From Eledone cirrhosa (Eukaryota), in assembly GCA_964016885.1 (NCBI GenBank), contig OZ024741.1, forward strand, positions 76,012,001 through 76,076,000: a stretch of DNA of 64,000 bases, read 5' to 3'. The notes below the pieces were generated by a model. That model worked only from the letters and a program-made list of their open reading frames with translations, was not told the origin of the DNA and did no database searches. The translations under genes and the position numbers were made by a program. Positions 8,501-51,610 of this stretch are shown here, piece by piece. Position 1 is the stretch's first letter, and every line of letters starts with the position of its first letter.

Positions 8501-8878
8501 ACTCAGATGGTGGATGGGTGCTACACGAGAATGCTGAGGATGGCTCTGAACATTAATCAGTATACACTGAGGATGAAAAACTCAGAGCTGTATGGGAGCA
8601 TCCCAAAAGTCAGCTCAAAAGTTACACAGAGGAGACTGAGGTTGGCTGGACATGCTCACCGACATCCAGAGTTGACATTGCACTCAGTGCTCCTTTGGGA
8701 GCCCCTACATGGACAAACTAGAAGAGGAAGACCAAGGTTAACATATGTTGATGCCCTAAGGACAGACACTGGTCTGTTGGAGATGCAGGATATGGCAGCG
8801 ATAATGAGGGACAGAGACCGCTGGAGAGAACTCGTCCATGGATCTCGGGAATTTTACCCGCCTTAGATAGATAGATAG
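5558..8878 (+). mobile_element. Full-length RTE-clade LINE
   Basis: TSD ACACTTACCA at 5548-5557 and 8879-8888. (TAGA)n tail. APE and RT coding region. Confidence 0.92.
5772..8866 (+). pseudogene. RTE ORF: apurinic-like endonuclease plus reverse transcriptase, one frameshift near 6741-6746
   Basis: APE motifs GTLNVRT, IQE, GDFNA, IDFI and SDH in ORF 5733-6794. RT motifs YRGISL, FIDFRKAFDSV, GVLQGD, FADD and YLG, and C-terminal RRGRP, in ORF 6785-8866. Confidence 0.92.
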
Positions 8879-11319: not shown

Positions 11320-11525
11320 CGGTGGATTGGCAGTATCGGTAGAGAGTCGGACACCATGCTTTGATGCATAGAGTTATGGCCCTTGCCATTCTGAGTTCAA
11401 ATCCCGCCGAGGTTAACTTTGCTTTTCATCCTTACGGGATCGATAAAATAAAGTACCAGTAATGTACTGGGTAATTGCGGCCTTGTGCCTAAAATAGAAA
11501 CAATTATTATTATTATTATTTATTT
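11320..11525 (+). mobile_element. Second copy of the same SINE with (ATT)n tail
   Basis: Closely similar to 11064-11246. Confidence 0.8.
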
Positions 11526-31149: not shown

Positions 31150-31510
31150 TGTGGATATTGCTTCACCATGGGACCACAGGGTAAATGAAAAGAAAAGTGA
31201 GAAAATTGAGAAATACAAGCTGAAGAGAAAAATCAGGGAAACTGGAGAATCAGACACGTAGAAATGGTACTGATGCTTGGCGCACAGGGAGCAGTTAGTA
31301 GGGGGTTAGATGCATGGCTTGAGAAGCTAGGAATTACCATCAGGACAGGATTGTTGGAGAAAACAGCCTTGTTGGGAACAGCAAGAATTCTAAGAAGGGT
31401 GTTGGAAAGTTGAAGGAGAAAGAATGATCCAAAGTACCTTTAGCCATTGGCTATGGCTCACTCTTTTGGTACAGTGTTGGTGTAACATCTGCCAGAACAG
31501 AAGTGTTGCG

Positions 31511-31570
<60 letters not shown>
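31150..31570 (+). mobile_element. R4/Dong-type non-LTR 3' remnant (family E) with (AAT)n tail
   Basis: KIEKY...GLDAWLEKLGI...LEKTALLGTARILRRVLES* (stop 31411), then (AAT)n at 31511-31570. Confidence 0.8.
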
Positions 31571-31571
<1 letters not shown>

Positions 31572-31829
31572 GTTTCCTTATTGGCCACAAGGGCTAACAT
31601 GAAGAAAAACATTAGAAACGGCACAGAACAGTACAGGACGATACAAAGTGGTTTTTGGTCGTGTAAACAGGTTATAACAAGATAGAAATCGGGATAGAAA
31701 TAAAAAATTCAAACAACAAAAATTCCCCCAAAAGGGGGAAAACCTCCGAGGGTCACTTGTGGTGAAAACCAGACAAAAGACCACAGTCACCCTGACCACC
31801 AGGGCAACCGCCCTCAGTTTTCCCACTCC

Positions 31830-34800
31830 TCAGTCTACAGGCGCATACTCAGAGTGGGCCCGTTCACTCAGACCAGACTCGCCACTTTCACCCACCTTTC
31901 AACAAACTTACTAGAAGACACCACTTGCCTCTCCACCCTGATTTTCCTCTTCAAGTGAAACTTGAAAAAGCTAATCAGGGATTGGCCGGAGAGGAAAGTG
32001 TCCGTCTTCAACCCTTTCAACTTTGTCCACCACACACTGTCTTTCGCACCAGGCAGGTGAAAACTGCCTGCCCTTCCTCCTCTTTAAAGGAGGATGGCGG
32101 GGCTATCTGCACAATGGACTCAGTCGATAACCGGATCTGTCCTACACGCGACAACACCTGTTCAACATAGCTCCACAAGTCAGCAATCCTCGGGCATGCA
32201 GGATGGTTTCGTCGCCCTGTTCGCATATTGGACAGGCTCGGCTGACAGCACCTTCGTGCCTGTAGAGCTTATCCTGAACCGGCAACGCTCCCCGGTAGCA
32301 CTGCCAGGCCAGGGATTTCTGGAAGTTGTCCATAGGTCCCGGTCTGAAAGTTCTCTTGAAGAGAGCGAACAGCTGATTGTCTTCAATGCCCAGGGTCTCC
32401 CCGAGAACGTTGCCGCTCTTTCCCTCCACTAGCCCTCTATAGAACGCCGAGGTGGATGTTCCACCGGTACTAGTGCCCAGCTGGTAGAGGGCGGTGAGCG
32501 CTTGGGGACATTCCAGCTTCCAAGCGCTAGCCTCGGTCTTTTCCTGATCCAGGACTGCAGCTCCGTCAAGGAGAAAAACTGGGGAAAAGCGCGTCTGGCA
32601 AACGGCGACCACACCTGTTCACCGTCAAGGAAGCACCAGAGATGTCGCAGCCTCAGCGCATGTTTGCGCATCATCAGCCACGGCATGCCCAGTCCTCCAC
32701 GCAACGGGTGTTGACAGGAAATGGATCATCTGACCATGGGAGCACGTCCCTTCCACAAAAAGCGGAAGAGAAGGCGCTTCATTTTGGTCAGAGTTGAGCG
32801 GGGGCAAGGTACGACGGTGAGGCGGTAGTAGATGACGGATGCGATATACGGTCCATTTCTGGGTGAGAGAGGCCACCCTGCTCGTCACCTCGCTCCAGGT
32901 TTTCTCCATATGGAGGTTCGGACTGAACCAGACCCTGAGCAATTTAACCAGTCCTTCCGTCCAGCGCCCCACCGACTTTTCCTGGTTTATTTTTGTTCCT
33001 GTCACCGCTTCGTATTCCTTGAGAGCGGTGCCGAGCATCTGGACGTGTTTGGTGCTCGACACCACCACGGTGACGTCGTCGGCGTAAGCTGACACGGATC
33101 TCCCGCATCCCAGTTCACATGGGACCCTCCTCATCATCTCCAATTTGTGCAGTAACGGCTCGAGGGCCAGTGCGTACAAGAGGGGGCAACCCTGGCAGAC
33201 CGAGCGCATGATGCTGAAAGGGTGCGACAGGTGACCATTCACCCTGACAAACGAGCAGATGTCACTGTGCATCGCAGCGATCCAGCCCCTAAAAAGGGCC
33301 CGAAGCCGCTTCGAGGATCGCAGCCAGGTACCGATGGTCGACCCTATCAAATGCTTTAGATTGACCCAAGTTGATCAGGGCCCCACCCGTGCCAGGTTCC
33401 TTAACTACCCTCTCTATGATGTATCGCATGAGATGGAGGTTATCATGGATAGATCTGTTCGGAATGGCACATATCTGCGCCTCTCCCACCAGATCACCAA
33501 CGACAAGCACCAATCTCTTTGCTAACACCTTGGCCAAAATCTTAAACTCTGCGTTTAGCAGAGTTATGGGCCTGAAGTTGTCTATAACGTCCCCCTTGTT
33601 CAGGTCTTTTCTGAGCAGCGCCACCGCTTCTCGGCTCACAAAACTGCCAGTTGCAGTAGACATCTGCCAAGAGGTCGCTGAACAAGTCTGGCATATACAC
33701 ATAAAGCTCGTAGGGCTGACCATCCAAACCTGGCGATTTACCACTCGTGCAGTCAGACATCGCTTCCCATATTTCACCTGCTGTTATTGGCTTTTCACAG
33801 CACTGCGCTGCAGTCGTCGAGAGCCACGGCAGTCCGTCGAGGTATGCACCGAAGTCCATACTCCGATCCGGCCTGCCGCCGCTCCCAAACAATTGAGTAA
33901 AGTGCTGTTGAAAAGCCACACACATCTGCTCGGGTTCGAGCACGCGTTCTATCTCTGACAACGCAGCCTTAATGCTTTGCGTTGAAGAATTGGTCGAGTG
34001 CCAATCTCGCCGCAAGCACGTCGGTTGCGATGCCTGTCCTAAACGCCTCTTCTAGCTTTCTAACTAACTCTACCTCTACTCTATTTTCCTCTATCACTAC
34101 TTCTTTGCTAAACTTTATCAATTCTACTCTGATAGCCCTTTTCAGGGTAAACCACCACCTGTTGTTGACGATCGCACCCGTTAATGCACGGTTAACTAAT
34201 TCGCTAATCCGGTCTCTGTAAGCTTTGCGTGCCGGGAGCGACGCGTTCAGCTTCCAGTAGCCGGGCCCTTGCCTATGGAGTCTATCTAAGTCAACTTCAC
34301 AGATCACAAATTTGTGGTCCGTGTAGTCGACTACTTTAAATTGTGGACAACCTACACTAGCCTTATCTGTTTCCCTACAGAATACCCTATCTAAATACGA
34401 TCTGGATGACCCGATGCAGTTTGCTGATGTCCACATTGGCACATTCGGATAATCCATTCTATACCCGTCAGACAGTTCAAAACGTCTGAGCAGGTTGTTG
34501 AGGCTTTTACACCCTCCTGCCCTGTCTACTAGCCCCACATAATCCCAGCGTGCATCTAAGATACCGTTTCAGTGGCCCACTAACACTAAAGGGCGGGACG
34601 TTCCAAAAAAGGTCTCTACACGTCTGAAGAAATCTGGCCGTCCTGCCCCTGTTGGGGAGTAGATGGCTACTAGCCTGAAAGCATTGCCTTCGCTGCCGGT
34701 CACGTCCAGCACTACCGACTTACCTTCTGGGTCCAGGAAGATGGCCTGTATGGCGAGATCCAAGCCTCTCCGAAAAAGCACAGCAACTCCTCCCCCCGAT

Positions 34801-34996
34801 CCTGGACGGCTGGGAGGTGCGTATACATCGTAGCCGCCGAAGATCGGTGCGAAGGCTCATGCTTCGGAGATTCTCGTCTCGCTGATGGCCACCACATCTA
34901 TGTTTAGTGACCTGAGGTCATTGAGCAGGTGACCCTGCTTCCGAGATGACCCCCAGGTCACGTACATTTATACTGCCTATTCTCAAGTACGGCCAT
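31830..34996 (-). pseudogene. Tx1 ORF2 (APE-RT-zinc finger), fragmented
   Basis: Consecutive ORF fragments 34569-34781, 33969-34538, 33542-34015, 33289-33777, 32625-33350, 32429-32704, 32142-32612 and 32017-32226. Confidence 0.85.
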
Positions 34997-35029
34997 GTTG
35001 GATGAGAAACGGGATAAGTGAGAAAGGAT

Positions 35030-36760
35030 CACTTACCTTGATCATGTGGGGAAGGGACAGTAGAACCGTCCCTTTGGCTGGTCATGGGTGTTTCCAAGAT
35101 GATGTCGGTGTATATCCTCTTGGTAACCGACCCTCTGAAGTCTCCAACTTCGTTGGGGAATTTTTCTTTGAAAAGTTTATAATGTTCTATTTTAATTTCA
35201 ATGATGTTTATATTTTTCGGGAGAGTTCTTGGTGTTGGTTTGGGCGTAGTAATTATTTTCTGTGATGTCTATGTGCTGCTTTATATGTTGTAAGAGTTCT
35301 TTATTTGCCATGTTTATGGCTATGTACCTTTTTGGGGAAGGGGTGGTTTTGTTGCTGTTTTCTTGTTGTTGCTGTTGGGTGTGTGTGCTTTGTTGTGTTT
35401 GCGATGTTGGTGTTTTTGGTGATGCTGGTGGTGGTGTGGTTGTTGTTGGTGGTGGTGCTTGTGGTGATGGTGGTCGTGTTGCTGCAAGTCTTTACCCCTC
35501 TTTGTTTGCCTTCGCTTTTGGAGGGTGAAGCTAAGGATATTTTTGTTTTTTGTTTTTTTTTGTGGCAGACTGTTTGCCACTTCCCTCCCGCCTCATACTC
35601 CATGTCAGATTCCGTGGCGTCTGAGAGGGTATGAGCTCCACTGCTGTTGGTGGTGATAGTGGAGCCCGCTCCGGCGATTTTGTCGCCAGTGTAGCTACTA
35701 CGACTGTTGGTGTTGCCGCCACTGCTGCCGCTGTTTAGTTGTCCGTGGCCTTGGTACAGGTGCCACGGACGTTGCCCTCCTACATACCATGGAAGGGTCT
35801 TCTGCCTCTGTTGCCTGCCCTGCTCTTGGTAGCAGCGGATCAGGCATCGGAGGGGGGGCCTCTTCTTGGCTGTCGTCTGCGGGCAGAGCGCCCTGAGGTG
35901 ACCCTTCTTCCCACAGAGATAGCACTTTGGGCGCCTTCCTTCCATGCTTATATGGAGTTGGAGTCCTTCCTAGAGGTCTATGATATCTAGGATGGCCTCG
36001 ATGCACTCTTGGTCAGTCTGTATTAGTATTTGCATGCCTATTCCTGACCAGTTCTCTCTTCCCATTCTCTGTATTTGTAGTATGGTGGTCTTCTCCTCGA
36101 TTCCAGCAAGTACAGATGCGGCCAGCCAAGGTATGGGCACGTCAGGCGGGACCTGGGTCACTTTGACCCTCACAATTTTCTGCCCACAGTAGGAGGGCAC
36201 CAAGACTATCTCCTCACTCTTTAGGGTTTCCAAAGATTGAGACTTTGCATCTTGGGGGGTGGCGAAAAGTACGTCTACTGTGGCATACATTTTGCCTCAG
36301 GTGATGTGGGTTTTGCGCGCCCAGACGCACCCAAAGGCCTTTTGGATTTGAGCCTCTGTGGCTCTCTCCACTCGATATGACATTTTGCGTACGGTGCGGT
36401 AAGTCACCGTGCACAGCTGCTGGTCTTTGAAGAAATCGAGTGGAGGTTTCAGGGAAACTCTATTGCCATTTCTTATCACCATGGCTCTTGCGACTGCCAT
36501 CTCCTCTTCCGTGACTAGCACTGTCTCTATATTTTGGGCCACACCAGCGAAAGAAGTGGCCCCTTTTTCAGCGGCACCATTATTGCAGCCACTACTGCTG
36601 CTACTGGTCTTGTTGTTGGTGCTGTTGCTGTTGCTACTGCTACAAACGGGGTTGTTGGTGTTGTTGCTGTTATCACTGTTGCAGTTGGTTGTGTTTTTGG
36701 TGCCACCGTTGTTGTTTTCAGTGCAATTTGTATTGTTGCTGTTGATGTTGTCGTTGTTTA
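35030..36760 (-). pseudogene. Tx1 ORF1 (CCHC knuckle, Thr/Asn-rich low-complexity segments), fragmented
   Basis: ORF fragments 36297-36542, 35970-36290 and 35301-35945. Boundaries approximate. Confidence 0.7.
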
Positions 36761-36930
36761 TTTTCTTGTTAGTGGTGTTAATATCATTGTTACAATATTA
36801 TACTTTCCCCTTCACAGGGCAAAGTCCAAGGGCTTATATCCCTTGCAGAAGAAAAATTTAACAACAAATAATTATAAAAGCTATATAAAGCGACTTACTG
36901 GGAGCGAGCAAAAAGACGTCCAAATAGACC

Positions 36931-36967
<37 letters not shown>

Positions 36968-37114
36968 GGAAGAAGACGCACGAGGTGACGGAGGTCATGA
37001 AATCGCTCCCGTAAGTTTTGAATTTTTAACATATTTAAACCATTTGTGAAATAACAACTCTTAGCACAAATGCTACGTAAAGCACCCGGCTTGAGCCCCA
37101 AAAAATTCGGACCC

Positions 37115-38419
37115 AAAATATATTGTTATAAGGCTCAAATATTCAAATATTCAACTTTGTATTGTACACTGTATATCCAAAAAAAAAAATGGCTATAAAT
37201 GGAAGAAGAACCCCTCCCCTCCTCTCCTCTGGCTACACTATATAGGACAGCTAAACTCACCATACACCAGAAACTAGATACACCACCCACCCCATCATAT
37301 GTGTACACTAAACACAACAGCCAGATAACGACACATTTTCACCTTCACCGCCACCGCTCACTACGGCCATCATTACCACCACTATCCCATCACCGCCGCC
37401 ACCACCCCTTGACTCCGCTACAGCACCATCACTACAGTAATACGGTCACATCACCGCCACCACTGCCTCGGTATCGACATCACCACCACCACTGTCTCAG
37501 TATCGCTAACGCCGCCAGTCTCCCACTTCCCTGCTGGCTGCTACTCCCACATTATAGAATTCCTACTACTAACAAAGAGGAAGGCACCAAAATATATAGA
37601 TAGACCCAAAAGAAAAAAGGAAAAACAAACAACAAAACCAAAGCAGCACAGCAACAACAGCAAAAAACGAGAAAAACAAACAGAGAAAAACAAAAACAAA
37701 AAAAAGAAACCCCAAAAACGTAAAGAAAATATATTGTTATAAGGCTCAAAACGTAAAGAAAATATATTGTTATAAGGCTCAAAACGTAAAGAAAATATAT
37801 TGTTATAAGGCTCAAATATTCAAATATTCAACTTTGTATTGTACACTGTATATCCAAAAAAAAAAAAAAAAAAAAAATGGCTATAAATGGAAGAAGAACC
37901 CCTCCCCTCCTCTCCTCTGGCTACACTATATAGGACAGCTAAACTCACCAACACCAGAAACTAGATACACCACCCACCCCATCATCTGTGTACACTAAAC
38001 ACAACAGCCAGATAACGACACATTTTCACCTTCACCGCCACCGCTCACTACGGCCATCATTACCACCACTATCCCAGCACCGCCGCCACCACCCCTTGAC
38101 TCCGCTACAGCACCATCACTACAGTAATACGGTCACATCACCGCCACCACTGCCTCGGTATCGACATCACCACCACCACTGTCTCAGTATCGATAACGCC
38201 GCCAGTCTCCCACTTCCCTGCTGGCTGCTACTTCCACATTATAGAATTCCTACTACTAACAAAGAGGAAGGCATCAAAATATATAGATAGACCCAAAAGA
38301 AAAAAGAAAAAACAAACAACAAAACCAAAGCAGCACAGCAACAACAGCAAAAAACGAGAAAAACAAACAGAGAAAAACAAAAACAAAAAAAAAGAAACCC
38401 CCAAAACGTAAAGAAAATA
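37115..38419 (+). repeat. Tandem duplication (677-bp period) with a triplicated 33-bp junction unit
   Basis: 37115-37731 matches 37792-38419. AAAACGTAAAGAAAATATATTGTTATAAGGCTC occurs three times at 37715-37813. Confidence 0.9.
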
Positions 38420-38721
38420 AGAATGAAGAGAGAAGCAGGCGGACGGACAGAGAAGCGGGGGGAAAAAGTAAAACTTAAAAAACTAAAACTAAGTCAGACA
38501 TTCGAACACTACATTACAATGAAACTTATGCTTATTCATTTCTGGGGCCCTTTCTGCCTGTGTGTTTGTTTGTTTATGTGTGTTCGTATACAGCGTGGTG
38601 ATAATGCCACACAAGGGCCAAGTAGGATGGCGAACCCACAGATGGCTATGTAAACATACATTCGCCAATCCTCGATAAGAGTGTTTAAATATCGAACATA
38701 AACAGTTCGAATAACGGTGAA

Positions 38722-41700
38722 ATGGAGACTAGAACGTCATGTTACAGACTCTCACCCAACAGGTGCCCCCTGGCTCAGCAGCAGGAACCTGACTGTCAAC
38801 CAAATACTGCTGATGTTGGAGGAAGGAGAAGAAGGAAAGGGGCCAGAACCAACTGGACGAAAGAATTGAATAGAACTGTTATGCAATGCTACCTGAAAAG
38901 TAACCCCAAGGAGAGGGGCTACAGGAGACGGATGCATAACATCTGGAACGAGATTGGTCTATTTAAATTAGATGAACAAAAATTGGCCGGGCAGGCTCGG
39001 GTAATAAGAACTAATGGGTGGATAAGCGAGCTGGAACTGGAGGAACTGAGCAGAGAGAATGGCTTGGAGATGGCGGGTGTAGTATGCCAGACAAGCGAGC
39101 CGGTGGGAAATGAAGGTGAGGAGGTCCTGAGAACGGAGGAACCACCCGAAGCAGACAATGATCTGAGTACTGAGATAAATAATACCTGGAACAGAGATAC
39201 GGCCACTGAGGAGATGAATGCTGACGGGCTAGGACAAGATTCGGTTGACATCCTAAATTTAGTGGTAGATGAATTGAACAATGATAGTGGGAGACCTATG
39301 AACCTAAGATTTGTAGACAGGAAAAAGTTAAAAGAAACAACAGCTAAGGTAAACAAAGTCATCCCATACCTTGAGGCGAGGAGCCTTCACCAGTGCAACA
39401 ATATCCTCAGAGCAACAGCAAATACGGTGAGGAAACTACTTGGTATAAAAGCGAGAGGAAACAACAGACAAGAAAGAGCAGAGCCGTGGTGGAAGAAGCG
39501 ACTGAGTGGGCAAATCGGGGAAATGAGAAATGACATAGGAAAGCTTGAGTCACTACTGAATGGGACACTAAAAAACATAGGCACTAAAAATAGACTGGAA
39601 ATAAAATACAAAACTAGGAGTAAAAAGCTAAATATTATCATAGAGGAATTGAAGCAACGCATTGTAGCAAAGAGTGCAAAAATCAGGCGATACGAGAACA
39701 GAGTCAGTCAGTATAAACAGAACCGCATGTTCGACAACAACCAGAAGATGCTGTTTGGACAGCTTGAGGGCAAAGAAAGAGGCAACGACTTGATCCCTGG
39801 GGCGGAGCAAACTAAAACATTCTGGAGAGGAATATGGGAGCAGGATGTTAGACACAATGCCCAGGCAGGGTGGATTGAGACAGTACAGAGGGAGATCGGT
39901 GAGCAGGCACAGCAACAGACTGATTTGAGTATCACAGTTGAAACTCTTAAGGGACAAGCCAAAAAACTAACCAACTGGAAATCGCCAGGCCCAGATGGTG
40001 TGCAGGGGTATTGGATTAAACATCTAACATCCCTCCACCCGAAGCTGACGGCCATGTTCAATGACTGCTTGGTGTCGGGTGAGGTGCCAGAGTGGTTGAC
40101 AAAAGGTACCACAGTTCTGATAATGAAAGACCGAATCAAGGGTAATGATGCTACCAACTATAGACCTATCACATGTCTGCCCGTAATGTGGAAACTGTTG
40201 ACGAGCATTGTGTCTGAGGAAATCTACCATCACCTCCACACAAACAACTTGTTACCGGACGAACAGAAAGGATGCCGAAAGAAGTCACGTGGTACAAAGG
40301 ACCAGTTGCTTATTGATAAGATGGTAATGGGGAATTGCAGGAGGAGACACACTGATCTTGCCATGGGATGGATAGACTACAGAAAGGCATTTGACATGGT
40401 GCCTCATTCCTGGATCACCAAAAGCCTGGAGATCTTCAGGGTGGCGGATAACATCAGACAGTTGCTAGGCAGGAGTATGGGGTCCTGGGAGACAGAGTTG
40501 ACATCAACTGGAGTATCCTTGGGAAGCGTGAAGATCAAGAGAGGTATCTTCCAGGGAGATAGCCTGTCCCCTCTGTTGTTTGTCCTTGCCCTGATGCCCT
40601 TGACTATTATGCTGTGAAAAGTGAGAGCAGGATACAAGTTGGGAAGGGGAGAGCTTACCATCAATCACCTCCTCTTCATGGACGATCTTAAGCTCTTCGG
40701 GAAAAGTGAGAAGGAGTTGGATGTGCTTGTTGACACTGTCCGTATTTTCAGCAGTGATATATGTATGCAGTTTGGTATTGGTAAATGTGGAGTCATTGTG
40801 ATGAAGAGGGGTAGGTTGAGCAGAAGTAACGGGATCCAGATACCAACAGGTGAGATGATAAAGGAAATTGACTCTGAGGAAGGATACAAGTATTTGGGCG
40901 TTCTGGAGGCTGATGGCATAAAGAACAAAAAAATGAAGGAATTGTTAAGAACTGAATACATTCGGAGAGTAAGGAGCGTATTGAAGTCACATCTGAACAG
41001 CAGAAATGCCATAAGCGCAGTAAATTCCCGAGCTGTGTCTATTATTAGGTACAGTGCGGGAATTCTGAGCTGGAATGTTGCTGAACAGAAAGAAATGGAT
41101 AGGAAGACTAGGAAGCTATTGACTATCTACAACATGTTCCACAAGAGGAGTGATGTCGATAGACTCTACCTAAGGAGATCTGAGGGTGGAAGAGGTCTTA
41201 TCAGCATAGAGGACTGTGTTCAGATGGAGAAAAACAACCTATACAAATACGTGACCTATAGTAAGGAGCCAATGCTCAGAGCTGTACTGAAGGAGGGGAC
41301 AGTAGGCCAGGGGATGTCCAGGGAGGAAATAACATCAAGGAGGAAGAGCAGCCTTAAGGGAAAACCCCTTCATAGTACCTTCTTTGAGAAAACTGAATTT
41401 AGAGATCCACAGACATGGAACTGGTTGAGAAGAGGAGACCTCAAAAAGGCTACAGAAGGAATGCTAATGGCTGCGCAGGAGCAGGCCCTCAAAACGAAGT
41501 GGTTGAAGCACCATATCTACAAGGAGGAGGCCAGCCCACTGTGCAGGATCTGTGGAGAGAGAGAGGAGACTGTGGCTCACATTGTGTCCGAGTGAAAACA
41601 CCTAGCCCAGACCCACTATAAGGGCTGGAGACACGATGTGATGGGCAGGGTGATCCACTGGCACCTGTACAAAGTAAACAATCTACCACATTCTGAGAAA

Positions 41701-42114
41701 TGGTATGAGCATAGGCCAGAGGCGGTGATGGAGAACAATCAGGTGAAGGTGCTGTGGGATTTTAGGATACAGACGGACAAAAAACTGGAACACAATAGAC
41801 CTGACCTGGTGGTTGTGGACAAAGAAAAAAGATCGTGCCTGATTGTGGATGTGGCCTGCCCGTTCGACACGAGAGTGCAAGAGAAGGAGAGGGAGAAAAT
41901 TAACCGATACCAGGACCTAAAGTGGGAGGTGAAAAGGATTTGGAACTGCCATGAAGTCAAAGTGATCCCGATTGTCATAGGCGCACTGGGGACTATCTCC
42001 AAAAGTTTCCAGGGATGGTTAAAGAAAATCGGCCCCTTCACGCTTTTTGGAACGCTTCAAAAGGCATGCTTGCTTGGAACAGCAAGAACCCTCCGATACG
42101 TCCTGAATATCTGA
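38722..42114 (+). pseudogene. Family A RT-CCHC-RLE ORF with two in-frame TGA stops
   Basis: One frame throughout. TGA at 40615 and 41593 where copy 2 has CGA and TGT. Motifs NYRPITCL, WIDYRKAFD, GIFQGD, FMDD, CRIC...H....(C), RHD and PD-(D/E)xK-type RPDLVVVD. Confidence 0.92.
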
Positions 42115-42200
42115 GGCTGCAGGTAGTGGCTTGATATTCAATCCAACGGACTTTCCAGTTAACCAACATCAATGACTGAGATTCAAGGAATAACAATAAC

Positions 42201-42239
<39 letters not shown>

Positions 42240-42242
<3 letters not shown>

Positions 42243-44999
42243 GAATGACAAAAACCTCCTGACAACGGGGGATATTTTGAAAATCTCTAAACATTTTTCA
42301 ATCCAACTGTGTGGCAAACTATCGAATGCTTTTTTATAATCTATCCAAGCAATCGATAGATTTTTGTGTCTATTATGACAATCTTCCAGTATCATTTTGT
42401 TAACAAAAAGCTGATCCTTACAGCCATATGAGCCTCGTTTACACCCTTTCTGCTCAATGGGAAATAGGTCATTTGTTATCAGGTGGTCATATGTGTATTC
42501 AGTTAGGACTGATGTTAAAATTTTATACATTGTAGTCAAGCAAGTTATCAGTCTGTAATTTTTGGGATTGTTTGTCTCATCATTCTTCGGAAGCAGGAAT
42601 GTAATGCCGTTAACTAGCCATGATGGTATCTTTTCTAGCTCCTTGAGCTGTTAGCCCAACTTTACAATGAAATAGTTAAGGAGCCAGAAAAGATACCATC
42701 ATGCCTAGTTAACGGCATTACATTACTGCTTCCGAAGAATGATGAGACAAACAATCCCAAAAATTACAGACCGATAACTTGCTTGACTACAATGTATAAC
42801 ATTTTAACATCAGTCCTAACTGAATACACATATGACCACCTGATAACAAATGACCTATTTCCCATTGAGCAGAAAGGGTGTAAACGAGGCTCATATGGCT
42901 GTAAGGATCAGCTTTTTGTTAACAAAATGATACTGGAAGATTGTCATAATAGACAGAAAAATCTATCGATTGCTTGGATAGATTATAAAAAAGCATTCGA
43001 TAGTTTGCCACACAGTTGGATTGAAAAATGTTTAGAGATTTTCAAAATATCCCCCGTTGTCAGGAGTTTTTTGTCATTCAGTATGAAGACATGGAAAACG
43101 ACACTCCTTTTGAATAGTGAAACAAAATCACTGGAAGCTGGAGAAGTTAATATTAATTGTGGAATTTTTCAGGGTGACTCTTTATCAGCGCTTTTATTCT
43201 GCATCGCACTTATACCATTAAGTAAAATGCTCAATGAAACAAAACATGGATATAAAGTCTATGACAAAACCATTAATCACTTGTTCTACATGGATGACCT
43301 GAAACTATTTGCAAAAAATGATGAACAATTGCAAGGGCTATTATCCACTGTGGAGCAGTTCAGTGATGACATTAAAATGGAGTTTGGACTAGATAAATGC
43401 GCCAAAGCAACGTTCACCAGAGGAAAGCTGCTGAAGAGTTCAGGCATTAATCTTGATCGGGGGAACGTGATAAGAGAACTTGATCAAGAAAAAACTTACA
43501 AATATCTAGGTGTTTGTGAAGGAGACGGGATCAAGCACTCGACAATGAGGGAAAGGATAAGGAAGGAATGTTACCGCAGAGTAAGAGCAATCTTAAGAAC
43601 GGAATTGAATGCAAGGAATAGGATCGATGCCATAAACACGCTTGCCATACCAGTAGTAACCTACAGTTACAATGTCATCAACTGGTCAAGCACAGAGATC
43701 CGTAGGCTCGATACAAAAATTCGAAAATTCTTAACCATGCACAGAATGCATCACCCTAAGGCAGATATAGATAGAATATATCTCCCTAGGAAAGAAGGAG
43801 GACGTGGGTTAATCCAGTTAGACATTGCGTTGAAAACTGCAACAATTGGATTATCTACATATCTAAGGGAATCACATGATTGGATGATCAAACTCGTTTT
43901 GAAACACGAAAGCATCAAAAATCATATTCCATTACAAAAGATGCACAAAGATACAGTAATGGACTACACATTTCAGAAGTCCCATTTACTGCTGAAATGG
44001 AAAACACAGAAAAAGCAAAGCAGGTAAAAGTAACTGCAAAGAAAGAACTGCTACAGAAACTGGCTAAGAAATGGCAAGAAAAGCCTCTGTATGGAAAATA
44101 CCCAGAGCGATCTAACAATCCTGATGTTGACAAAACTTTAACCCATCAGTGGTTGGCATCCTCTGGACTGAAATCGGAGACTGAAGGACTGATTATATCA
44201 GCACAAGATCAGTGTCTGCCAACAAAAAATTACCAAGCCAACATAATAAAAAATGGATGCAGCCCATTATGCCGTGTATGCAAAAAACAACCAGAGACCA
44301 TTGACCATATAATTTCAATGTGCAGTCCTATAGCTCCAACCGAATACCTAAACAGGCATGACAGAGCTGCACAATACATACATTGGATAATGTGTAAGCA
44401 TTTTGACCTGCCCCATCAAAAGAATTGGTGGGAGCATCAACCACCTCCCATACTTGAAAAAGATCACATCTCAATCTTGTGGAACTTTAGCATCCAAACA
44501 GACCGAAAAATAGATGCAAATAGACCTGATATAATATTGAAGGACATTAAAAAGAGGGTATGCCTGCTAATTGATATGTCTGTTCCAATATACAAGAATG
44601 TATCTATAAAAACATTTGAAAAATTGAGCAAGTATAAGGACCTGGAGATAGAAATTGGAAAAATGTGGAAATTGAGAACTAAAACAATACCAGTGGTTGT
44701 AGGCGCTCTGGGAATGATACCTAAGAGGTCTAATGATTACTTATCGCAAATCCCAGGAAACCCGCGTATAGGAGAAATACAAAAGATAGTACTAATGGGA
44801 ACTGCCCATATACTAAGGAAGATTCTGTCAATATAAGTACATCACAAGTCTAAACACTAAAGATGCATGTGTGAGTATGTATGTTCTTCCTTGAACATGG
44901 CGGACCTTGTTGTCTCTTGAGGTCACTGGTTGTGACTTGGTGATAACTCGTATGAACATAAAGCAAGATAAATGCAACTGTAATAATAATAATAATAAT
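42240..44999 (+). mobile_element. R4/Dong-type family B, 5'-truncated with ~405-bp inverted duplication at its 5' end
   Basis: Sense coding 42645-44836 (YMDD, CRVC, RHD, RPDII; frameshift near 43915). 42240-42644 is the reverse complement of 42678-43084. (TAA)n tail at 44982-44999. Confidence 0.9.
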
Positions 45000-47652
45000 C
45001 ATTGAAGACCCCCTGTCCATAGAAGAAGTTGAAAACTTCTGGAGTAAGATTTGGAGTGATGAGAAGACATATAATGCTCATGTAGATTGGATTAGTCGCC
45101 TGGAAAAATCCTACACAAAAATCCTACACAAATTTAGAAGAACAGGCGTGGGAAAACATCTCTATAGCGGACTTAAGGACAGCACTCAATAAATCTCATA
45201 AATGGAAATCTCCTGGTAGAGACAGGGTGCTAAATTTCTGACTTTCTTCACTCCCGTGCACTCACAATATATTGGTCAAGCTGTTTAATGGAATTATGGA
45301 AGATCAAAAAAATACACCTGATTGCATAGCAAGTGGCATTACCTACCTGCTACCAAAGAACAACGAAACCAAAGATCAAAAAAACTATCGACCATAACCT
45401 GCTTGTCCACCACTTATAAACTATTAACCTCTATTCTCATGGAAAAAGTATACGTGTTTTTGGAGAACAATCTTTTCCCCATTGAACAAAAAGGGTGCCG
45501 ACGAGGTTCTTATGGTTGCAAAGATCAACTTTTGATTAATTGTATGATCCTTGAGAACTGTCATAATAAACAGAGAAATCTCAGTTCTGCATGGATCGAT
45601 TATAAAAAAGCCTTTGACAGCATACCACACACATGGATTCTGAAATCACTGGACATTTTCAAAATCTCACCTGTGATCTCAAACTTCCTTAAAAACAATA
45701 TGTCATTATGGAACACAAATCTCCAATTGTCTCATTCCACTGGGGTACTGTGCTCTAGGAATATAAACATCAACTGTGGTATATTCCAGGGTGACTCACT
45801 TTCACCCTTGCTTTTCTGCATAGCTTTAATACCCCTTACATCCGAACTTAATAGAACAGGGTACGGTTATAGAATTGACAACAAAAAAATAAGCCACCTA
45901 TTTTATATGGATGATTTGAAGCTATATTGCAAAGATAATGACGAACTGGAAGGCCTTTTGCAAACAGTAAAAACGTTTAGCGATGACAACAGGATGGAGT
46001 TTGGACTTGACAAGTGTGCAAAAGCCACTTTCAAGAAGGGGAAGCTCGTCAACTCAGACTCAGTTGAATTGGATGCTGAAACAATCATAAAGAAACTTAA
46101 GCAGGAACAAACCTATAAATACTTAGGGATTAATGAGGGCTCTGGCATACAGCATGCAAGTATGATAGAGAGGATAAGGAAAGAATGTTACAGGAGAGTA
46201 CGTGCAGTTCTGAGATCAGAACTAAATGCTCGTAACAAGGTGCTAGGCATAAATTCCTTGGCAGTCCCAGTTGTCACTTATAGCTTCGGTGTGTTGAACT
46301 GGAATATGAGTGAAATCAATAGAATCGACACCAAAGTTCGTAAGCTACTGAGCTGTAATAGGATGAAACACCCAAAAGCAGATGTGGATCGTCTTTACTT
46401 TCCTAGAACTCAAGGAGGCCGTGGCCTGATCCAATTTGAACTTGCTTACAAGACCACCATCATTGGACTGGCCAAATACCTTGAAACAACTAACGACTAT
46501 ATGCTGAAACTTGTTGAAAAGCATGAGAGAAGTAAGAAGCTTCATTCTATCTTGAAGCAGAGCAAAAAATATGCTACTGATCTCATGCTTGATACCCAGG
46601 TTGGACAGACTAAAAAAACTGTTGCAACTGATGCTGCTAGGCACATAAAATCACTGGCAAAAGCAAAAGGGCAAGGACAATTAGCATCAAATTGGGAGCA
46701 GAAACCTTTGCATGGCAAATATGTGGCCCGTAGCAAACAAGCTGATGTTGACCAAAAGCACACCCATCAGTGGCTATGTAGTTCAGGGCTAAAGGCGGAG
46801 AGTGAAGACTTCATCTTAGCTGCCCAAGATCAAAGCTTATTGACTCGTAATTACCAGGCCAATGTGATGAGAAACGGAATAAACCCAAAGTTCCGATTCT
46901 GCAATGCTGAGGTTGAAACAGTGGATCACTTAGTCTCTGGATGTAAAGTTTTAGCACCAGTAGAATACAAATATAGACATGACAGAGTTGGCCAATATCT
47001 ACACTGGGTAATATGTCGGCATTACAAAATGAAAGCTGAAGACAGGTGGTACAATCATCACCCTGAGGCTGTAACTGAAGGAGAAAAAGTAACGATTCTC
47101 TGGGACTTTCCTGTACATACTGACAGGACCATAAAAGCAAATAGACCTGACATCATTGTAAAAGATCAACATAACAAGGTCTGTTTATTGATAGATATTA
47201 GTATCCCATGTGATCACAATATCGCGGCAAAAGAATTTGACAAGCTACGAAAATATAAAGATCTGCTTATTAAAATTGAGAAAATGTGGCACCTCAAGGC
47301 CGTTACAATACCAGTGATTGTGGGAGGACTGGGAATGATCAAGAAAGGAACAGAACAATATTTGCGAATGATTCCTGGTTTACCCTCTCTACACGAGGTG
47401 CAAAAAATTGTTTTGACTGGTACTGCACACGTATTGAGAAGAGCACTATCTCTGTAAGATTGATATCCCTCCTTGTATTTACATATGCATATGCACATGT
47501 GTATATATGTATAGTTCTTTCTTTTTTTAAAAATTATAATCGATGTGCTGTATTAACTGACTTACCAATGCACACTGTGAATTTATTTGCCCTAGGTGTC
47601 AGGACGACACTTGGCATATATCTCATAAAAAATAATGAAAGTAAATAAAAAC

Positions 47653-47694
<42 letters not shown>
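45000..47694 (+). mobile_element. R4/Dong-type family C, 5'-truncated
   Basis: ORF 45322-47457 with WIDYKKAFD, GIFQGD, YMDD, RHD and RPDIIV. Frameshifted at the 5' end. (AAT)n tail at 47652-47694. Confidence 0.9.
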
Positions 47695-47695
<1 letters not shown>

Positions 47696-47699
47696 TAGG

Positions 47700-50600
47700 G
47701 AATGCTACCTGAAAAGTAACCCCAAGGAGAGGGGCTACAGGAGACGGATGCATAACATCTGGAACGAGATTGGTTTATTTAAATTAGATGAACAAAAATT
47801 GGCCGGGCAGGCTCGGGTAATAAGAACTAATGGGTGGATAAGCGAGCTGGAACTGGAGGAACTGAGCAGAGAGAATGGCTTGGAGATGGCGGGTGTAGTA
47901 TGCCAGACAAGCGAGCCAGTGGGAAATGAAGGTGAAGAGGTCCTGAGAACGGAGGAACCACCCGAAGCAGACAATGATCTGAATACTGAGATAAATAATA
48001 CCTGGAACAGAGATACGGCCACTGAGGAGATGAATGCTGACGGGCTAGGACAAGATTCGGTTGACATCCTAAATTTAGTGGTAGATGAATTGAACAATGA
48101 TAGTGGGAGACCTATGAACCTAAGATTTGTAGACAGGAAAAAGTTAAAAGAAACAACAGCTAAGGTAAACAAAGTCATCCCATACCTTGAGGCGAGGAGC
48201 CTTCACCAGTGCAACAATATCCTCAAAGCAACAGCAAATACGGTGAGGAAACTACTTGGTATAAAAGCGAGAGGAAACAACAGACAAGAAAGAGCAGAGC
48301 CGTGGTGGAAGAAGCGACTGAGTGGGCAAATCGGGGAAATGAGAAATGACATAGGAAAGCTTGAGTCACTACTGAATGGGACACTAAAAAACATAGGCAC
48401 TAAAAATAGACTGGAAATAAAATACAAAACTAGGAGTAAAAAGCTAAATATTATCATAGAGGAATTGAAGCAACGCATTGTAGCAAAGAGTGCAAAAATC
48501 AGGCGATACGAGAACAGAGTCAGTCAGTATAAACAGAACCGCATGTTCGACAACAACCAGAAGATGCTGTTTGGACAGCTTGAGGGCAAAGAAAGAGGCA
48601 ACGACTTGATCCCTGGGGCGGAGCAAACTAAAACATTCTGGAGAGGAATATGGGAGCAGGATGTTAGACACAATGCCCAGGCAGGGTGGATTGAGACAGT
48701 ACAGAGGGAGATCGGTGAGCAGGCACAGCAACAGACTGATTTGAGTATCACAGTTGAAACTCTTAAGGGGCAGGCCAAAAAACTAACCAACTGGAAATCA
48801 CCAGGCCCAGATCGTGTGCAGGGGTATTGGATTAAACATTTAACATCCCTCCACCCGAAGCTGACGGCCATGTTCAATGACTGCTTGGTGTCGGGTGAGG
48901 TGCCAGAGTGGTTGACAAAAGGTACCACAGTTCTGATAATGAAAGACCGAATCAAGGGTAATGATGTTACCAACTATAGACCTATCACATGTCTGTCCGT
49001 AATGTGGAAACTGTTGACGAGCATTGTGTCTGAGGAAATCTACCATCACCTCCACACAAACAACTTGTTACCGGACGAACAGAAAGGATGCCGAAAGAAG
49101 TCACGTGGTACAAAGGACCAGTTGCTTATTGATAAGATGGTAATGGGGAATTGCAGGAGGAGACACACTGATCTTGCCATGGGATGGATAGACTACAGAA
49201 AGGCATTTGACATGGTGCCTCATTCCTGGATCACCAAAAGCCTGGAGATCTTCAGGGTGGCAGATAACATCAGACAGTTGCTAGGCAGGAGTATGGGGTC
49301 CTGGGAGACAGAGTTGACATCAACTGGAGTATCCTTGGGAAGCGTGAAGATCAAGAGAGGTATCTTTCAGGGAGATAGCCTGTCCCCTCTGTTGTTTGTC
49401 CTTGCCCTGATGCCCTTGACCATTATGCTGCGAAAAGTGAGAGCAGGATACAAGTTGGGAAGGGGAGAGCTTACCATCAATCACCTCCTCTTCATGGACG
49501 ATCTTAAGCTCTTCGGGAAAAGTGAGAAGGAGTTGGATGTGCTTGTTGACACTGTCCGTATTTTCAGCAGTGATATATGTATGCAGTTTGGTATTAGTAA
49601 ATGTGGAGTCATTGTGATGAAGAGGGGTAGGTTGAGCAGAAGTAACGGGATCCAGATACCAACAGGTGAGATGATAAAGGAAATTGACTCTGAGGAAGGA
49701 TACAAGTATTTGGGCGTTCTGGAGGCTGATGGCATAAAGAACAAAAAAATGAAGGAATTGTTAAGAACTGAATACATTCGGAGAGTAAGGAGCGTATTGA
49801 AGTCACATCTGAACAGCAGAAATGCCATAAGCGCAGTAAATTCCCGAGCTGTGTCTATTATCAGGTACAGTGCGGGAATTCTGAGATGGAATGTTGCTGA
49901 ACAAAAAGAAATGGATAGGAAGACTAGGAAGCTATTGACTATCTACAACATGTTCCACAAGAGGAGTGATGTCGATAGACTCTACCTAAGGAGATCTGAG
50001 GGTGGAAGAGGTCTTATCAGCATAGAGGACTGTGTTCAGATGGAGAAAAACAACCTATACAAATACGTGACCTATAGTAAGGAGCCAATGCTCAGAACTG
50101 TACTGAAGGAGGGGACAGTAGGCCAGGGGATGTCCAAGGAGGAAATAACATCAAGGAGGAAGAGCAGCCTTAAGGGAAAATCCCTTCATAGTACCTTCTT
50201 TGAGAAAACTGAATTTAGAGATCCACAGACATGGAACTGGTTGAGAAGAGGAGACCTCAAAAAGGCTACAGAAGGAATGCTAATGGCTGCGCAGGAGCAG
50301 GCCCTCAAAACGAAGTGGTTGAAGCACCATATCTACAAGGAGGAGGCTAGCCCACTGTGCAGGATCTGTGGAGAGAGAGAGGAGACTGTGGCTCACATTG
50401 TGTCCGAGTGTAAACACCTAGCCCAGACCCACTATAAGGGCTGGAGACACGATGTGATGGGCAGGGTGATCCACTGGCACCTGTGCAAAGTCAACAATTT
50501 ACCACATTCTGAGAAATGGTATGAGCATAGGCCAGAGGCGGTGATGGAGAACAATCAGGTGAAGGTGCTATGGGATTTTAGGATACAGACGGACAAAAAA

Positions 50601-51034
50601 CTGGAACACAATAGACCTGACCTGGTGGTTGTGGACAAAGAAAAAAGATCGTGCCTGATTGTGGATGTGGCCTGCCCGTTCGACACGAGAGTGCAAGAGA
50701 AGGAGAGGGAGAAAATTAACCGATACCAGGACCTAAAGTGGGAGGTGAAAAGGATTTGGAACTGCCATGAAGTCAAAGTGATCCCGATTGTCATAGGCGC
50801 ACTGGGGACTATCTCCAAAAGTTTCCAGGGATGGTTAAAGAAAATCGGCCCCTTCACGCTTTTTGGAACGCTTCAAAAGGCATGCTTGCTTGGAACAGCA
50901 AGAACCCTCCGATACGTCCTGAATATCTGAGGCTGCAGGTAGTGGCTTGATATTCAATCCAACGGACTTTCCAGTTAACCAACATCAATGACTGAGATTC
51001 AAGGAATAACAACAATAATAATAATAATAATAAT
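47700..51034 (+). mobile_element. R4/Dong-type family A copy 2, 5'-truncated
   Basis: Starts at the position equivalent to ~38886 of copy 1, near-identical to it, with an (AAT)n tail. Confidence 0.92.
47748..50930 (+). CDS. Uninterrupted 1060-aa RT + CCHC zinc finger + restriction-like endonuclease (native N-terminus missing)
   Basis: ORF track. Motifs FMDD, CRICGEREETVAHIVSEC, RHD, RPDLVVVDKEKRSCLIVDV and KINRY. Confidence 0.85.
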   Translation: MHNIWNEIGLFKLDEQKLAGQARVIRTNGWISELELEELSRENGLEMAGVVCQTSEPVGNEGEEVLRTEEPPEADNDLNTEINNTWNRDTATEEMNADGLGQDSVDILNLVVDELNNDSGRPMNLRFVDRKKLKETTAKVNKVIPYLEARSLHQCNNILKATANTVRKLLGIKARGNNRQERAEPWWKKRLSGQIGEMRNDIGKLESLLNGTLKNIGTKNRLEIKYKTRSKKLNIIIEELKQRIVAKSAKIRRYENRVSQYKQNRMFDNNQKMLFGQLEGKERGNDLIPGAEQTKTFWRGIWEQDVRHNAQAGWIETVQREIGEQAQQQTDLSITVETLKGQAKKLTNWKSPGPDRVQGYWIKHLTSLHPKLTAMFNDCLVSGEVPEWLTKGTTVLIMKDRIKGNDVTNYRPITCLSVMWKLLTSIVSEEIYHHLHTNNLLPDEQKGCRKKSRGTKDQLLIDKMVMGNCRRRHTDLAMGWIDYRKAFDMVPHSWITKSLEIFRVADNIRQLLGRSMGSWETELTSTGVSLGSVKIKRGIFQGDSLSPLLFVLALMPLTIMLRKVRAGYKLGRGELTINHLLFMDDLKLFGKSEKELDVLVDTVRIFSSDICMQFGISKCGVIVMKRGRLSRSNGIQIPTGEMIKEIDSEEGYKYLGVLEADGIKNKKMKELLRTEYIRRVRSVLKSHLNSRNAISAVNSRAVSIIRYSAGILRWNVAEQKEMDRKTRKLLTIYNMFHKRSDVDRLYLRRSEGGRGLISIEDCVQMEKNNLYKYVTYSKEPMLRTVLKEGTVGQGMSKEEITSRRKSSLKGKSLHSTFFEKTEFRDPQTWNWLRRGDLKKATEGMLMAAQEQALKTKWLKHHIYKEEASPLCRICGEREETVAHIVSECKHLAQTHYKGWRHDVMGRVIHWHLCKVNNLPHSEKWYEHRPEAVMENNQVKVLWDFRIQTDKKLEHNRPDLVVVDKEKRSCLIVDVACPFDTRVQEKEREKINRYQDLKWEVKRIWNCHEVKVIPIVIGALGTISKSFQGWLKKIGPFTLFGTLQKACLLGTARTLRYVLNI

Positions 51035-51348
51035 AGAGAGCTAAAACATTACCAGTGGTTGTAGGTGCTCTATGAATGATACCTAAGGGGTCTAATGATT
51101 ACTTATCCCAAATCCCAAGAAACCCACATACAGAAGAAATACAGAAGATAGTACTAATGGGAACTGCCCATATACTAAGGAAAATTCTGTCGATATAAGT
51201 ATATCAAAACACCCAAAGATAAATGTTTGTGTGTGTATGAGTTTTTCTTGAACATGGCAGACCTTGTTGTCTCTTGAGGTCATTGGTTGTGACTTGGTGT
51301 TAACTCATATGAACATAAAGCAAGATAAATGAAAAAAAAAATAATAAT
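51035..51348 (+). mobile_element. R4/Dong family B-like 3' remnant
   Basis: Diverged copy of 44675-44970 (IQKIVLMGTAHILRKILSI*). Confidence 0.85.
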
Positions 51349-51349
51349 A

Positions 51350-51610
51350 CACCACCTCACAGCATCAAGTAAATTCAGGTTGTCTTTAGAACTTTGGGCT
51401 TGAGACCACTAAAACTGAAAGGGTATCTTAAGAATATAAACCTGGAATCATAAGCTGTTCTCCAACAGAAGAATGCCTTGTTGGGCATTGCACGTAGTCA
51501 GAAAAGTAATGTTTGTCTAAGGTCCTTGTTGAGATTAAACACACAGTAGAATATCTAATAATTATCAAATTTACTGTGTAAACCATCAATAATAATAATA
51601 ATAATAATAT
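51350..51610 (+). mobile_element. Old R4/Dong-type 3' remnant (family F) with (AAT)n tail
   Basis: QKNALLGIAR-like terminal motif, degenerate 3' hairpin, (AAT)n at 51587-51608. Confidence 0.6.

What the first reader, a model, noticed from the sequence alone, without database searches (positions are those of the whole stretch)
31442..51536. Covarying 3'-UTR stem with NGGNN pentaloop shared by the R4/Dong families
Otherwise unalignable 3' UTRs hold the same hairpin 40-60 nt before the tail. A: AGGCTGC-AGGTA-GTGGCTT (42114-42132, 50930-50948). B: AGGTCAC-TGGTT-GTGACTT (44920-44938). B-like: AGGTCAT-TGGTT-GTGACTT (51277-51295). C: AGGTGTC-AGGAC-GACACTT (47594-47612). E: AGCCAT-TGGCT-ATGGCT (31442-31458). 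F is degenerate (51520-51536). Stem bases change in compensating pairs while the loop GG is kept. Inference: this is the cis signal the RT recognises for target-primed reverse transcription, analogous to the GG-loop stem of L2/CR1 LINEs, and could allow cross-family mobilisation.
Basis: partly seen in the sequence, partly recalled or inferred. Interest (0 to 1): 0.72.

Follow-up and report, generated by a model that had tools for sequence, protein, structure and literature searches.

The report
Two-hairpin tag of Dong retrotransposons
Many distantly related Dong-type jumping genes end in the same small RNA fold, a bulged hairpin usually followed by a second one, whose base pairs are kept while the letters change; it is likely the tag by which each element's own enzyme picks its RNA for copying, a known kind of signal.

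Summary
The hairpins are real. They sit at the 3' ends of seven nested, (AAT)n-tailed RT+RLE non-LTR elements of Dong/R4 type. In 64 non-redundant relatives from other genomes, 40 have a perfect 6-bp pentaloop stem (shuffles 8.1). A model built from window copies alone hit the ORF end in 19 of 21 matches. The fold is a lower stem, a 3x1 internal loop, a 6-bp upper stem and a loop in which the central G dominates; GG is kept in only 28 of 44. The bulge is the stop codon in 14 of 44. A second bulged hairpin follows in 36 of 44, so the unit resembles the two-stem 'R2 tag' more than the single L2 hairpin. Template recognition for TPRT is inferred, not shown (0.75). Cross-family mobilisation is unsupported: A and B both have intact ORFs, no SINE appeared among 60 sampled copies, and old families show no young burst. 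The scan reported the first hairpin before, in this genome and another. I found no paper or Rfam family for it, but the founding R4/Dong papers and Repbase were unavailable. Verdict: new variant of a known kind.

The parts
31432..31466 (+). SL1 of family E (old, 5'-truncated copy): lower stem, 3x1 loop, 6-bp stem, loop UGGCU
31478..31495 (+). SL2 of family E (inner stem GGYA/UGCC type)
   Evidence: read by eye, strict descriptor missed this copy
31511..31570 (+). (AAT)n tail of E
36967..38688 (+). 5' leader of full-length A1, with a 687-nt internal duplication; related leader precedes family B elsewhere
38689..42114 (+). A1 ORF (RT, CCHC, RLE), broken by two in-frame stops
42105..42139 (+). 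SL1 of A1; the 3-nt bulge is the TGA stop codon (42112-42114)
42155..42180 (+). SL2 of A1
42189..42240 (+). (AAT)n tail of A1, into which B is inserted
42238..44977 (+). Family B copy, 5'-truncated, with an inverted 5' segment (42238-42644) and a frameshift
44911..44945 (+). SL1 of B, bulge 84 nt after the stop; no canonical SL2, divergent candidate follows
45322..47457 (+). Family C ORF fragment (711 aa; RT, CCHC, RLE)
47585..47619 (+). SL1 of C, bulge 137 nt after the stop; no SL2
47694..50930 (+). A2 ORF, 5'-truncated, open for 1078 aa
50921..50955 (+). SL1 of A2 (bulge = TGA stop)
50971..50996 (+). SL2 of A2
51268..51302 (+). SL1 of the B-like stub (87% identical to B)
51511..51544 (+). 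Degenerate SL1 of F (bulge = TAA stop)
   Evidence: E 4.4, not significant alone
51555..51578 (+). Degenerate SL2 of F
   Evidence: strict form in 6 of 20 distinct copies
51588..51608 (+). (AAT)n tail of F

Best explanation
The 3' end of these Dong/R4-type retrotransposons carries a conserved RNA fold, a bulged pentaloop hairpin (SL1) usually followed by an A-rich linker and a second bulged hairpin (SL2), which likely is the tag that the element's own RT-endonuclease protein binds to select and position its RNA for target-primed reverse transcription at (TAA)n repeats. Shown: the fold, its covariation, its place 40-70 nt before the tail, the protein architecture and the nesting in (AAT)n. Inferred: the protein, probably through the region N-terminal of the RT as in R2, binds SL1 by shape and reads the invariant loop G; SL2 and the linker set the distance to the repeat tail, which anneals to the nicked microsatellite and primes cDNA. 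Family specificity likely comes from the variable loop and stem letters, SL2 and cis preference, so use is mostly by the own family.
For: Enrichment in relatives from other genomes. Window-only model: 21 hits in 295 kb searched on both strands, all on the sense strand, 19 at the ORF end, the best 18 all so (placed). The lower stem was not used to pick hairpins and is 78% paired in the 3x1 register against 24-49% in registers off that helix. Tree-aware null, 44 rows, median 45% protein identity: 5 of 6 upper pairs and 2 of 7 lower pairs covary at E<0.05. Two-hairpin alignment: 87% of cells paired, 15 of 18 pairs with changes on both sides, 0 of 500 shuffles reach the score. SL2 in 36 of 44 against 6.8. 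Distance to the tail clusters at 40-71 nt while distance to the stop ranges from -12 to +196. A tail-less clade (L139, L157, L178) has no model hit. Precedent: R2Bm needs a two-stem core with linker adenosines (PMC10499050 passages; PMC11194090 abstract and Discussion); L2 needs stem, hinge and loop G (PMC1636434 passages; PMC4176376 sections 13 and 19).
Against: No binding, probing or TPRT data. Covariation of the upper stem is partly circular, because rows were picked for pairing; the SL2 descriptor was written after seeing these sequences. 10 of 52 non-redundant ends have no model hit. B, C, L187 and L196 lack a canonical SL2, yet B is young and abundant, so SL2 in its usual form is dispensable. 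G-U versus A-C bias, a test of strand, is weak (11 vs 6). No SINE partner sharing the tag was seen in 60 copies.
Confidence: 0.75

Rival explanations
1. Same tag, but family-blind: any Dong protein copies any RNA with the fold, so families mobilise one another.
For: Fold shared by families only 35-57% identical in protein. R2Bm accepts the D. melanogaster 3' end (PMC5135761 passage), avian R2 proteins prefer a foreign 3' UTR (PMC13580325 passage), ZfL2-2 uses the UnaL2 tail. A and B share a 5' leader at roughly 70-85%, so they have exchanged sequence.
Against: A and B each have intact frames of 1141 and 1216 aa. All 60 sampled exact hairpins lie on their own family's body. Nearest-neighbour identity of at least 99%: A 59 of 90, B 50 of 71, but C 4 of 32, E 4 of 20, F 0 of 17 (these copies were chosen as best hits to the window copy, so the sample is biased). 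Swapped stem-loops abolish ZfL2-1 and ZfL2-2 mobility.
Confidence: 0.2
2. The fold acts on the RNA's life before integration: 3'-end formation, protection from exonucleases, or a termination-linked signal that hands the RNA from ribosome to nascent protein.
For: The bulge is the stop codon in 14 of 44. The elements have no poly(A) and would need another 3' protection (inference). The upper stem often reads GG..CC like the histone stem-loop (recalled).
Against: In 30 of 44 the bulge is not the stop and is mostly not a stop triplet; spacing follows the tail, not the stop. The loop is 5 nt with a central G, and Rfam gives no hit on any hairpin.
Confidence: 0.12
3. No selected structure: shared ancestry plus chance palindromes in short UTRs, or a DNA-level palindrome.
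For: Single-sequence folding z-scores are weak (-0.05 to -2.1). The reverse complement also has 29 of 64 perfect stems.
Against: Compensatory changes survive a tree-aware null; fixed loop length and sense-strand central G, with no C in 42; held-out model hits.
Confidence: 0.03

Closest known systems
R2Bm 3' UTR core, the 43-nt 'R2 tag' P1-J1/2-P2 (PMC10499050 passages; PMC11194090 abstract and Discussion)
   Same: Sister RLE clade with the same RT-CCHC-RLE protein (best PDB hits are R2 proteins); two stems joined by a single-stranded, A-containing linker at the RNA 3' end; little primary conservation between families.
   Different: Here both stems are compact hairpins with a conserved pentaloop G, a 3x1 internal loop and a bulged W; the R2 stems close large variable domains and the tag loops are artificial. 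Target is (TAA)n, not 28S rDNA. Homology of the two RNAs was not tested.
3' stem-loop of stringent L2 LINEs: eel UnaL2, zebrafish ZfL2-1 and ZfL2-2 (PMC1636434 passages; PMC4176376 sections 13, 19)
   Same: Upper stem with a five-base loop containing a key G, a flexible hinge and a lower stem, upstream of a short-repeat tail.
   Different: Loop is N-D-G-N-N, not GGAUA; the conserved G is third, not second; a second hairpin and 40-70 nt separate it from the tail; the protein has a C-terminal RLE, not an N-terminal APE.
R4-clade LINE/SINE pairs of Entamoeba (EhLINE/EhSINE, R4-1_ED/EdSINE1; Table 1 of PMC3747384, passage)
   Same: Shows that R4-clade elements share 3' tails with partners, which implies 3'-end recognition in this clade.
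   Different: No structure given in the passages seen; I could not test whether those tails hold this fold. No partner SINE found here.
Dong (Bombyx mori) and Dong-R4 LINEs of octopus genomes (PMC3774820, PMC13282606, PMC8967140 passages)
   Same: Dong sits in TAA repeats and belongs to the R4 lineage; several Dong-R4 families are recently active in one octopus genome.
   Different: Those passages describe the 5' ribozyme or copy numbers; 'stem-loop' and 'hairpin' do not occur in PMC13282606.

Membership tests
R4/Dong clade of RLE non-LTR retrotransposons | Single ORF: RT followed by CCHC knuckle and PD-(D/E)xK endonuclease, no APE | tested here: met
   RVT_1 only; CCHC in 64 of 64 and xPD..D in 64 of 64 aligned homologues; aligns to R2 proteins through the RLE
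R4/Dong clade of RLE non-LTR retrotransposons | Insertion into (TAA)n microsatellites (Dong) | tested here: met
   21 of 36 visible 5' junctions have at least 3 AAT units; 58 of 60 have a repeat tail; Dong-TAA link from PMC3774820 passage
R4/Dong clade of RLE non-LTR retrotransposons | No N-terminal zinc finger, unlike R2, NeSL/Utopia and Hero (feature recalled for R4) | tested here: met
   0 of 64 by pattern in the first 250 aa
R4/Dong clade of RLE non-LTR retrotransposons | RT phylogeny groups with named R4, Dong, Rex6 | not testable with these tools
   No named reference among the hits; the clade label rests on architecture and target
R4/Dong clade of RLE non-LTR retrotransposons | HDV-like ribozyme at the 5' end (shown for R4 and Dong) | tested here: inconclusive
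   No Rfam ribozyme hit on full-length A and B loci; the 5' terminus folds but I could not place a catalytic core
L2-type 3' stem-loop (UnaL2, ZfL2) | Upper stem, hinge and lower stem with a pentaloop | tested here: met
L2-type 3' stem-loop (UnaL2, ZfL2) | GGAUA loop with the second G recognised | tested here: not met
   No GGATA among the 44 loops listed; second base G 28, A 9, T 7
L2-type 3' stem-loop (UnaL2, ZfL2) | Bound by a region between APE and RT of an L2 ORF2 | tested here: not met
   No APE in these ORFs
L2-type 3' stem-loop (UnaL2, ZfL2) | Required for retrotransposition | not testable with these tools
   needs an assay
R2 3' core (P1-J1/2-P2) | Two stems joined by a single-stranded linker near the 3' end | tested here: met
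   SL2 in 36 of 44; linker 10-23 nt counted from the lower stem's 3' strand; absent or divergent in the B/C lineage
R2 3' core (P1-J1/2-P2) | Conserved adenosines in the linker | tested here: inconclusive
   A directly before SL2 in 26 of 34, in a linker that is 46% A overall
R2 3' core (P1-J1/2-P2) | Binding by the NTE-1 helix, sufficient for TPRT of cargo | not testable with these tools
   needs an assay; the structure prediction had not finished
Histone 3' stem-loop | 6-bp stem with a 4-nt U-rich loop (recalled) | tested here: not met
   4-nt loops not enriched, 7 of 64 against 8.8; no Rfam hit

The most novel reading that the evidence does not exclude
SL1-linker-SL2 is a portable 65-80 nt 'Dong tag', the same ancestral two-stem device as the R2 tag, kept across the whole clade and read family-blind: any active Dong protein writes any tagged RNA into (TAA)n repeats, and co-packaging of families explains the 5' leader that A and B share.
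Probability: 0.15. Interest if true: 0.75.

Novelty: new variant of a known kind. Interest (0 to 1): 0.48.

Why it matters
Among endonuclease-last (RLE) retrotransposons, RNA recognition is understood mainly for R2. A compact, alignable fold across a second clade gives a ready mutational map (loop G, 3x1 loop, SL2, spacing) and lets one ask whether the two-stem core is ancestral and how specificity between co-resident families arises. If the tag is portable, a Dong protein could insert cargo RNA at TAA microsatellites. The covariance models also mark true 3' ends for repeat annotation. It is not a new kind of mechanism.

Tried and rejected
Rfam: nothing at any hairpin. Viral contigs: no relatives. 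DNA search of G000 with the A UTR returned nothing because common words are skipped; uninformative. Sequencing runs: no RNA holder listed; no reads were laid. A pairing between the SL1 loop and the SL2 flank was looked for by eye only and not seen. Recoding or readthrough at the stop: rejected, the bulge is TAA, TGA or TAG when it is the stop and mostly a non-stop triplet otherwise. A SINE carrying the tag: none among 60 exact copies; the 13 unexplained model hits inspected in own-genome loci were older or truncated A, B, C or E relatives. The CCHC count of 1 came from a wrong pattern and was redone. Structure prediction did not finish; the protein atlas gave no result. Prior art: 10 searches found no description of this fold; one search was swamped by unrelated papers. 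The founding R4 and Dong papers are not held; Kojima and Fujiwara 2004, Repbase and all supplements were not seen and may describe it.
Full report
Setting. The window is G000:C2:76012001-76076000 of a 3.0-Gb animal genome. Between 31.0 and 51.6 kb lie nested non-LTR elements, each ending in (AAT)n. Their ORFs hold an RT, a CCHC knuckle and a PD-D endonuclease, and their best PDB matches are R2 proteins. Proteins A, B and C are 35-57% identical. A1 is full length with two stops; A2, B, C, B-like, E and F are 5'-truncated. The exact A hairpin occurs 8,189 times in G000 and the B hairpin 4,741 times, with 0 for the reversed controls. Intact frames exist for A (1141 aa) and B (1216 aa). The R4/Dong label rests on architecture, lack of an N-terminal finger (0 of 64) and the TAA target (21 of 36 visible 5' junctions). 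No named R4 or Dong sequence was available for a tree.

Observation. All seven hairpins are as written. To test chance I fetched 91 loci of relatives from metagenome and genome contigs and 30 more from five of those records. From 112 ORF ends, 109 had enough downstream DNA and 64 were non-redundant. Without any loop rule, a perfect 6-bp stem closes a 5-nt loop in 40 of 64, against 8.1 in shuffles. Loops of 4 and 6-9 nt are not clearly enriched; 3-nt loops are (25), which I read as the same hairpins when the loop ends pair.

Corrected anatomy. SL1: a rule using only the upper hairpin picked 44 of 64. RNAalifold returns the same fold. After dropping 4 picks by position (L158, L248, L191, L196) and adding 4 window copies, a substitution-shuffling null on a protein tree found covariation in 5 of 6 upper pairs and 2 of 7 lower pairs at E<0.05; a third lower pair had E 0.09. 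The upper result is partly circular, the lower is not; one row (L216) was a mis-pick left in. The loop is N-D-G-N-N: second base G 28, A 9, T 7; first and last bases are identical or pair in 40 of 44; in a pick blind to loop letters the centre is G in 35 of 42 and never C. The bulge is the stop codon in 14 of 44, including A; F shows the same. Distance to the tail clusters at 40-71 nt (28 of 30 tailed picks) while distance to the stop spans -12 to +196.

SL2: C, a 4-bp stem with a variable loop, then W-G, so that the outer C-G pair flanks a bulged W. It occurs in 36 of 44 against 6.8 in shuffles; the descriptor was written after seeing the data, and two or three hits look like chance picks. 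On 30 sequences aligned by MAFFT, 87% of cells pair and 15 of 18 pairs change on both sides; three of five SL2 pairs do. An A precedes SL2 in 26 of 34. A, E and F have SL2; B, C, L187 and L196 form one clade with long UTRs and no canonical SL2, though B has a divergent candidate. Refined models hit 42 of 52 non-redundant ends, many of them training rows. Of the 10 misses, five look like degenerate variants by eye, one is cut short, and four are tail-less, three of them forming a clade.

Mechanism. Shown: a selected RNA fold at a fixed distance from the priming tail. Inferred: it is the template signal. In R2Bm, two stems and a linker with conserved adenosines are all that is needed for TPRT and can carry cargo (PMC10499050, passages); binding needs both stem-loops and the last one sets template position (PMC11194090, abstract and Discussion). 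In L2, stem, hinge and loop G are required (PMC1636434, passages; PMC4176376, abstract and sections 13, 19). R4-clade LINE/SINE pairs in Entamoeba imply 3' recognition in this clade (PMC3747384, table passage). I put this at 0.75. The overlap with the stop codon is best read as the ORF running up to the signal, since the bulge tolerates non-stop triplets when freed.

Cross-family use. Not supported. All 60 positionally sampled exact hairpins (30 of 8,189 and 30 of 4,741) sit on their own family's body; the shortest carry 30, 36 and 67 nt of it. C, E and F show few or no near-identical pairs although A and B are young (biased sample). ZfL2-1 and ZfL2-2 do not accept each other's stem-loops. On the other side, R2 proteins accept some foreign UTRs (PMC13580325 and PMC5135761, passages) and A and B share a 5' leader. 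I put it at 0.2.

Novelty. No Rfam family and no paper in 10 searches (listed under Tried and rejected) describe the fold; the founding papers and Repbase were not seen. Other papers seen as passages only: PMC3774820, PMC13282606, PMC8967140, PMC3636483, PMC4758252, PMC5678591, PMC4640811. Two earlier notes of this scan report the first hairpin; their short texts do not mention a second one. The kind of signal is well known, the fold and clade appear new: new variant of a known kind, interest 0.48.

Noticed in passing
window 36967-38688; L257, L314, L321, L322: Families A and B (35% protein identity) have related 5' leaders, about 70-85% identical over 300 nt or more; in L257 the A-type 5' terminus runs into B sequence. 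Suggests exchange of a promoter or processing module between families.
   Followed up: partly
window 36967-37020: The 5' terminus of A folds into a closed stem with an inner hairpin and a possible pseudoknot; no Rfam ribozyme hit and no catalytic core placed.
   Followed up: partly
window 42238-42644: The B copy has a 407-nt inverted 5' segment, the pattern of twin priming, giving a long inverted repeat centred near 42660.
   Followed up: partly
window 31571-36930, minus strand: A two-ORF element (zinc knuckle, APE-like, RT; Tx1-like by recall) sits antisense between (AAT)n runs; its 3' end recurs after many A and B tails.
   Followed up: partly
window about 11400-11520; L096, L100, L125: A SINE-like repeat with an (ATT)n tail inserts antisense into the same (AAT)n runs; its last 25 nt resemble the 3' end of the Tx1-like element, a possible LINE/SINE pair.
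   Followed up: no
L139, L157, L178 (also L189, L195): A sub-lineage of the same protein family lacks both the (AAT)n tail and the motif; its 3' signal is unknown.
   Followed up: partly
L300 (G000:C1:27115521-27118543): Shortest B insertion seen starts exactly at the 5' base of SL1's lower stem; a single case.
   Followed up: no
window 5697-8866: Frameshifted APE+RT element of RTE-like appearance, unrelated to the finding.
   Followed up: no
window 61382-64000: 31-bp satellite, at least 84 copies.
   Followed up: no
L210-L221 (G001-G005): Several prokaryotic genome bins contain contigs with these animal-type retrotransposons, probably host contamination.
   Followed up: no
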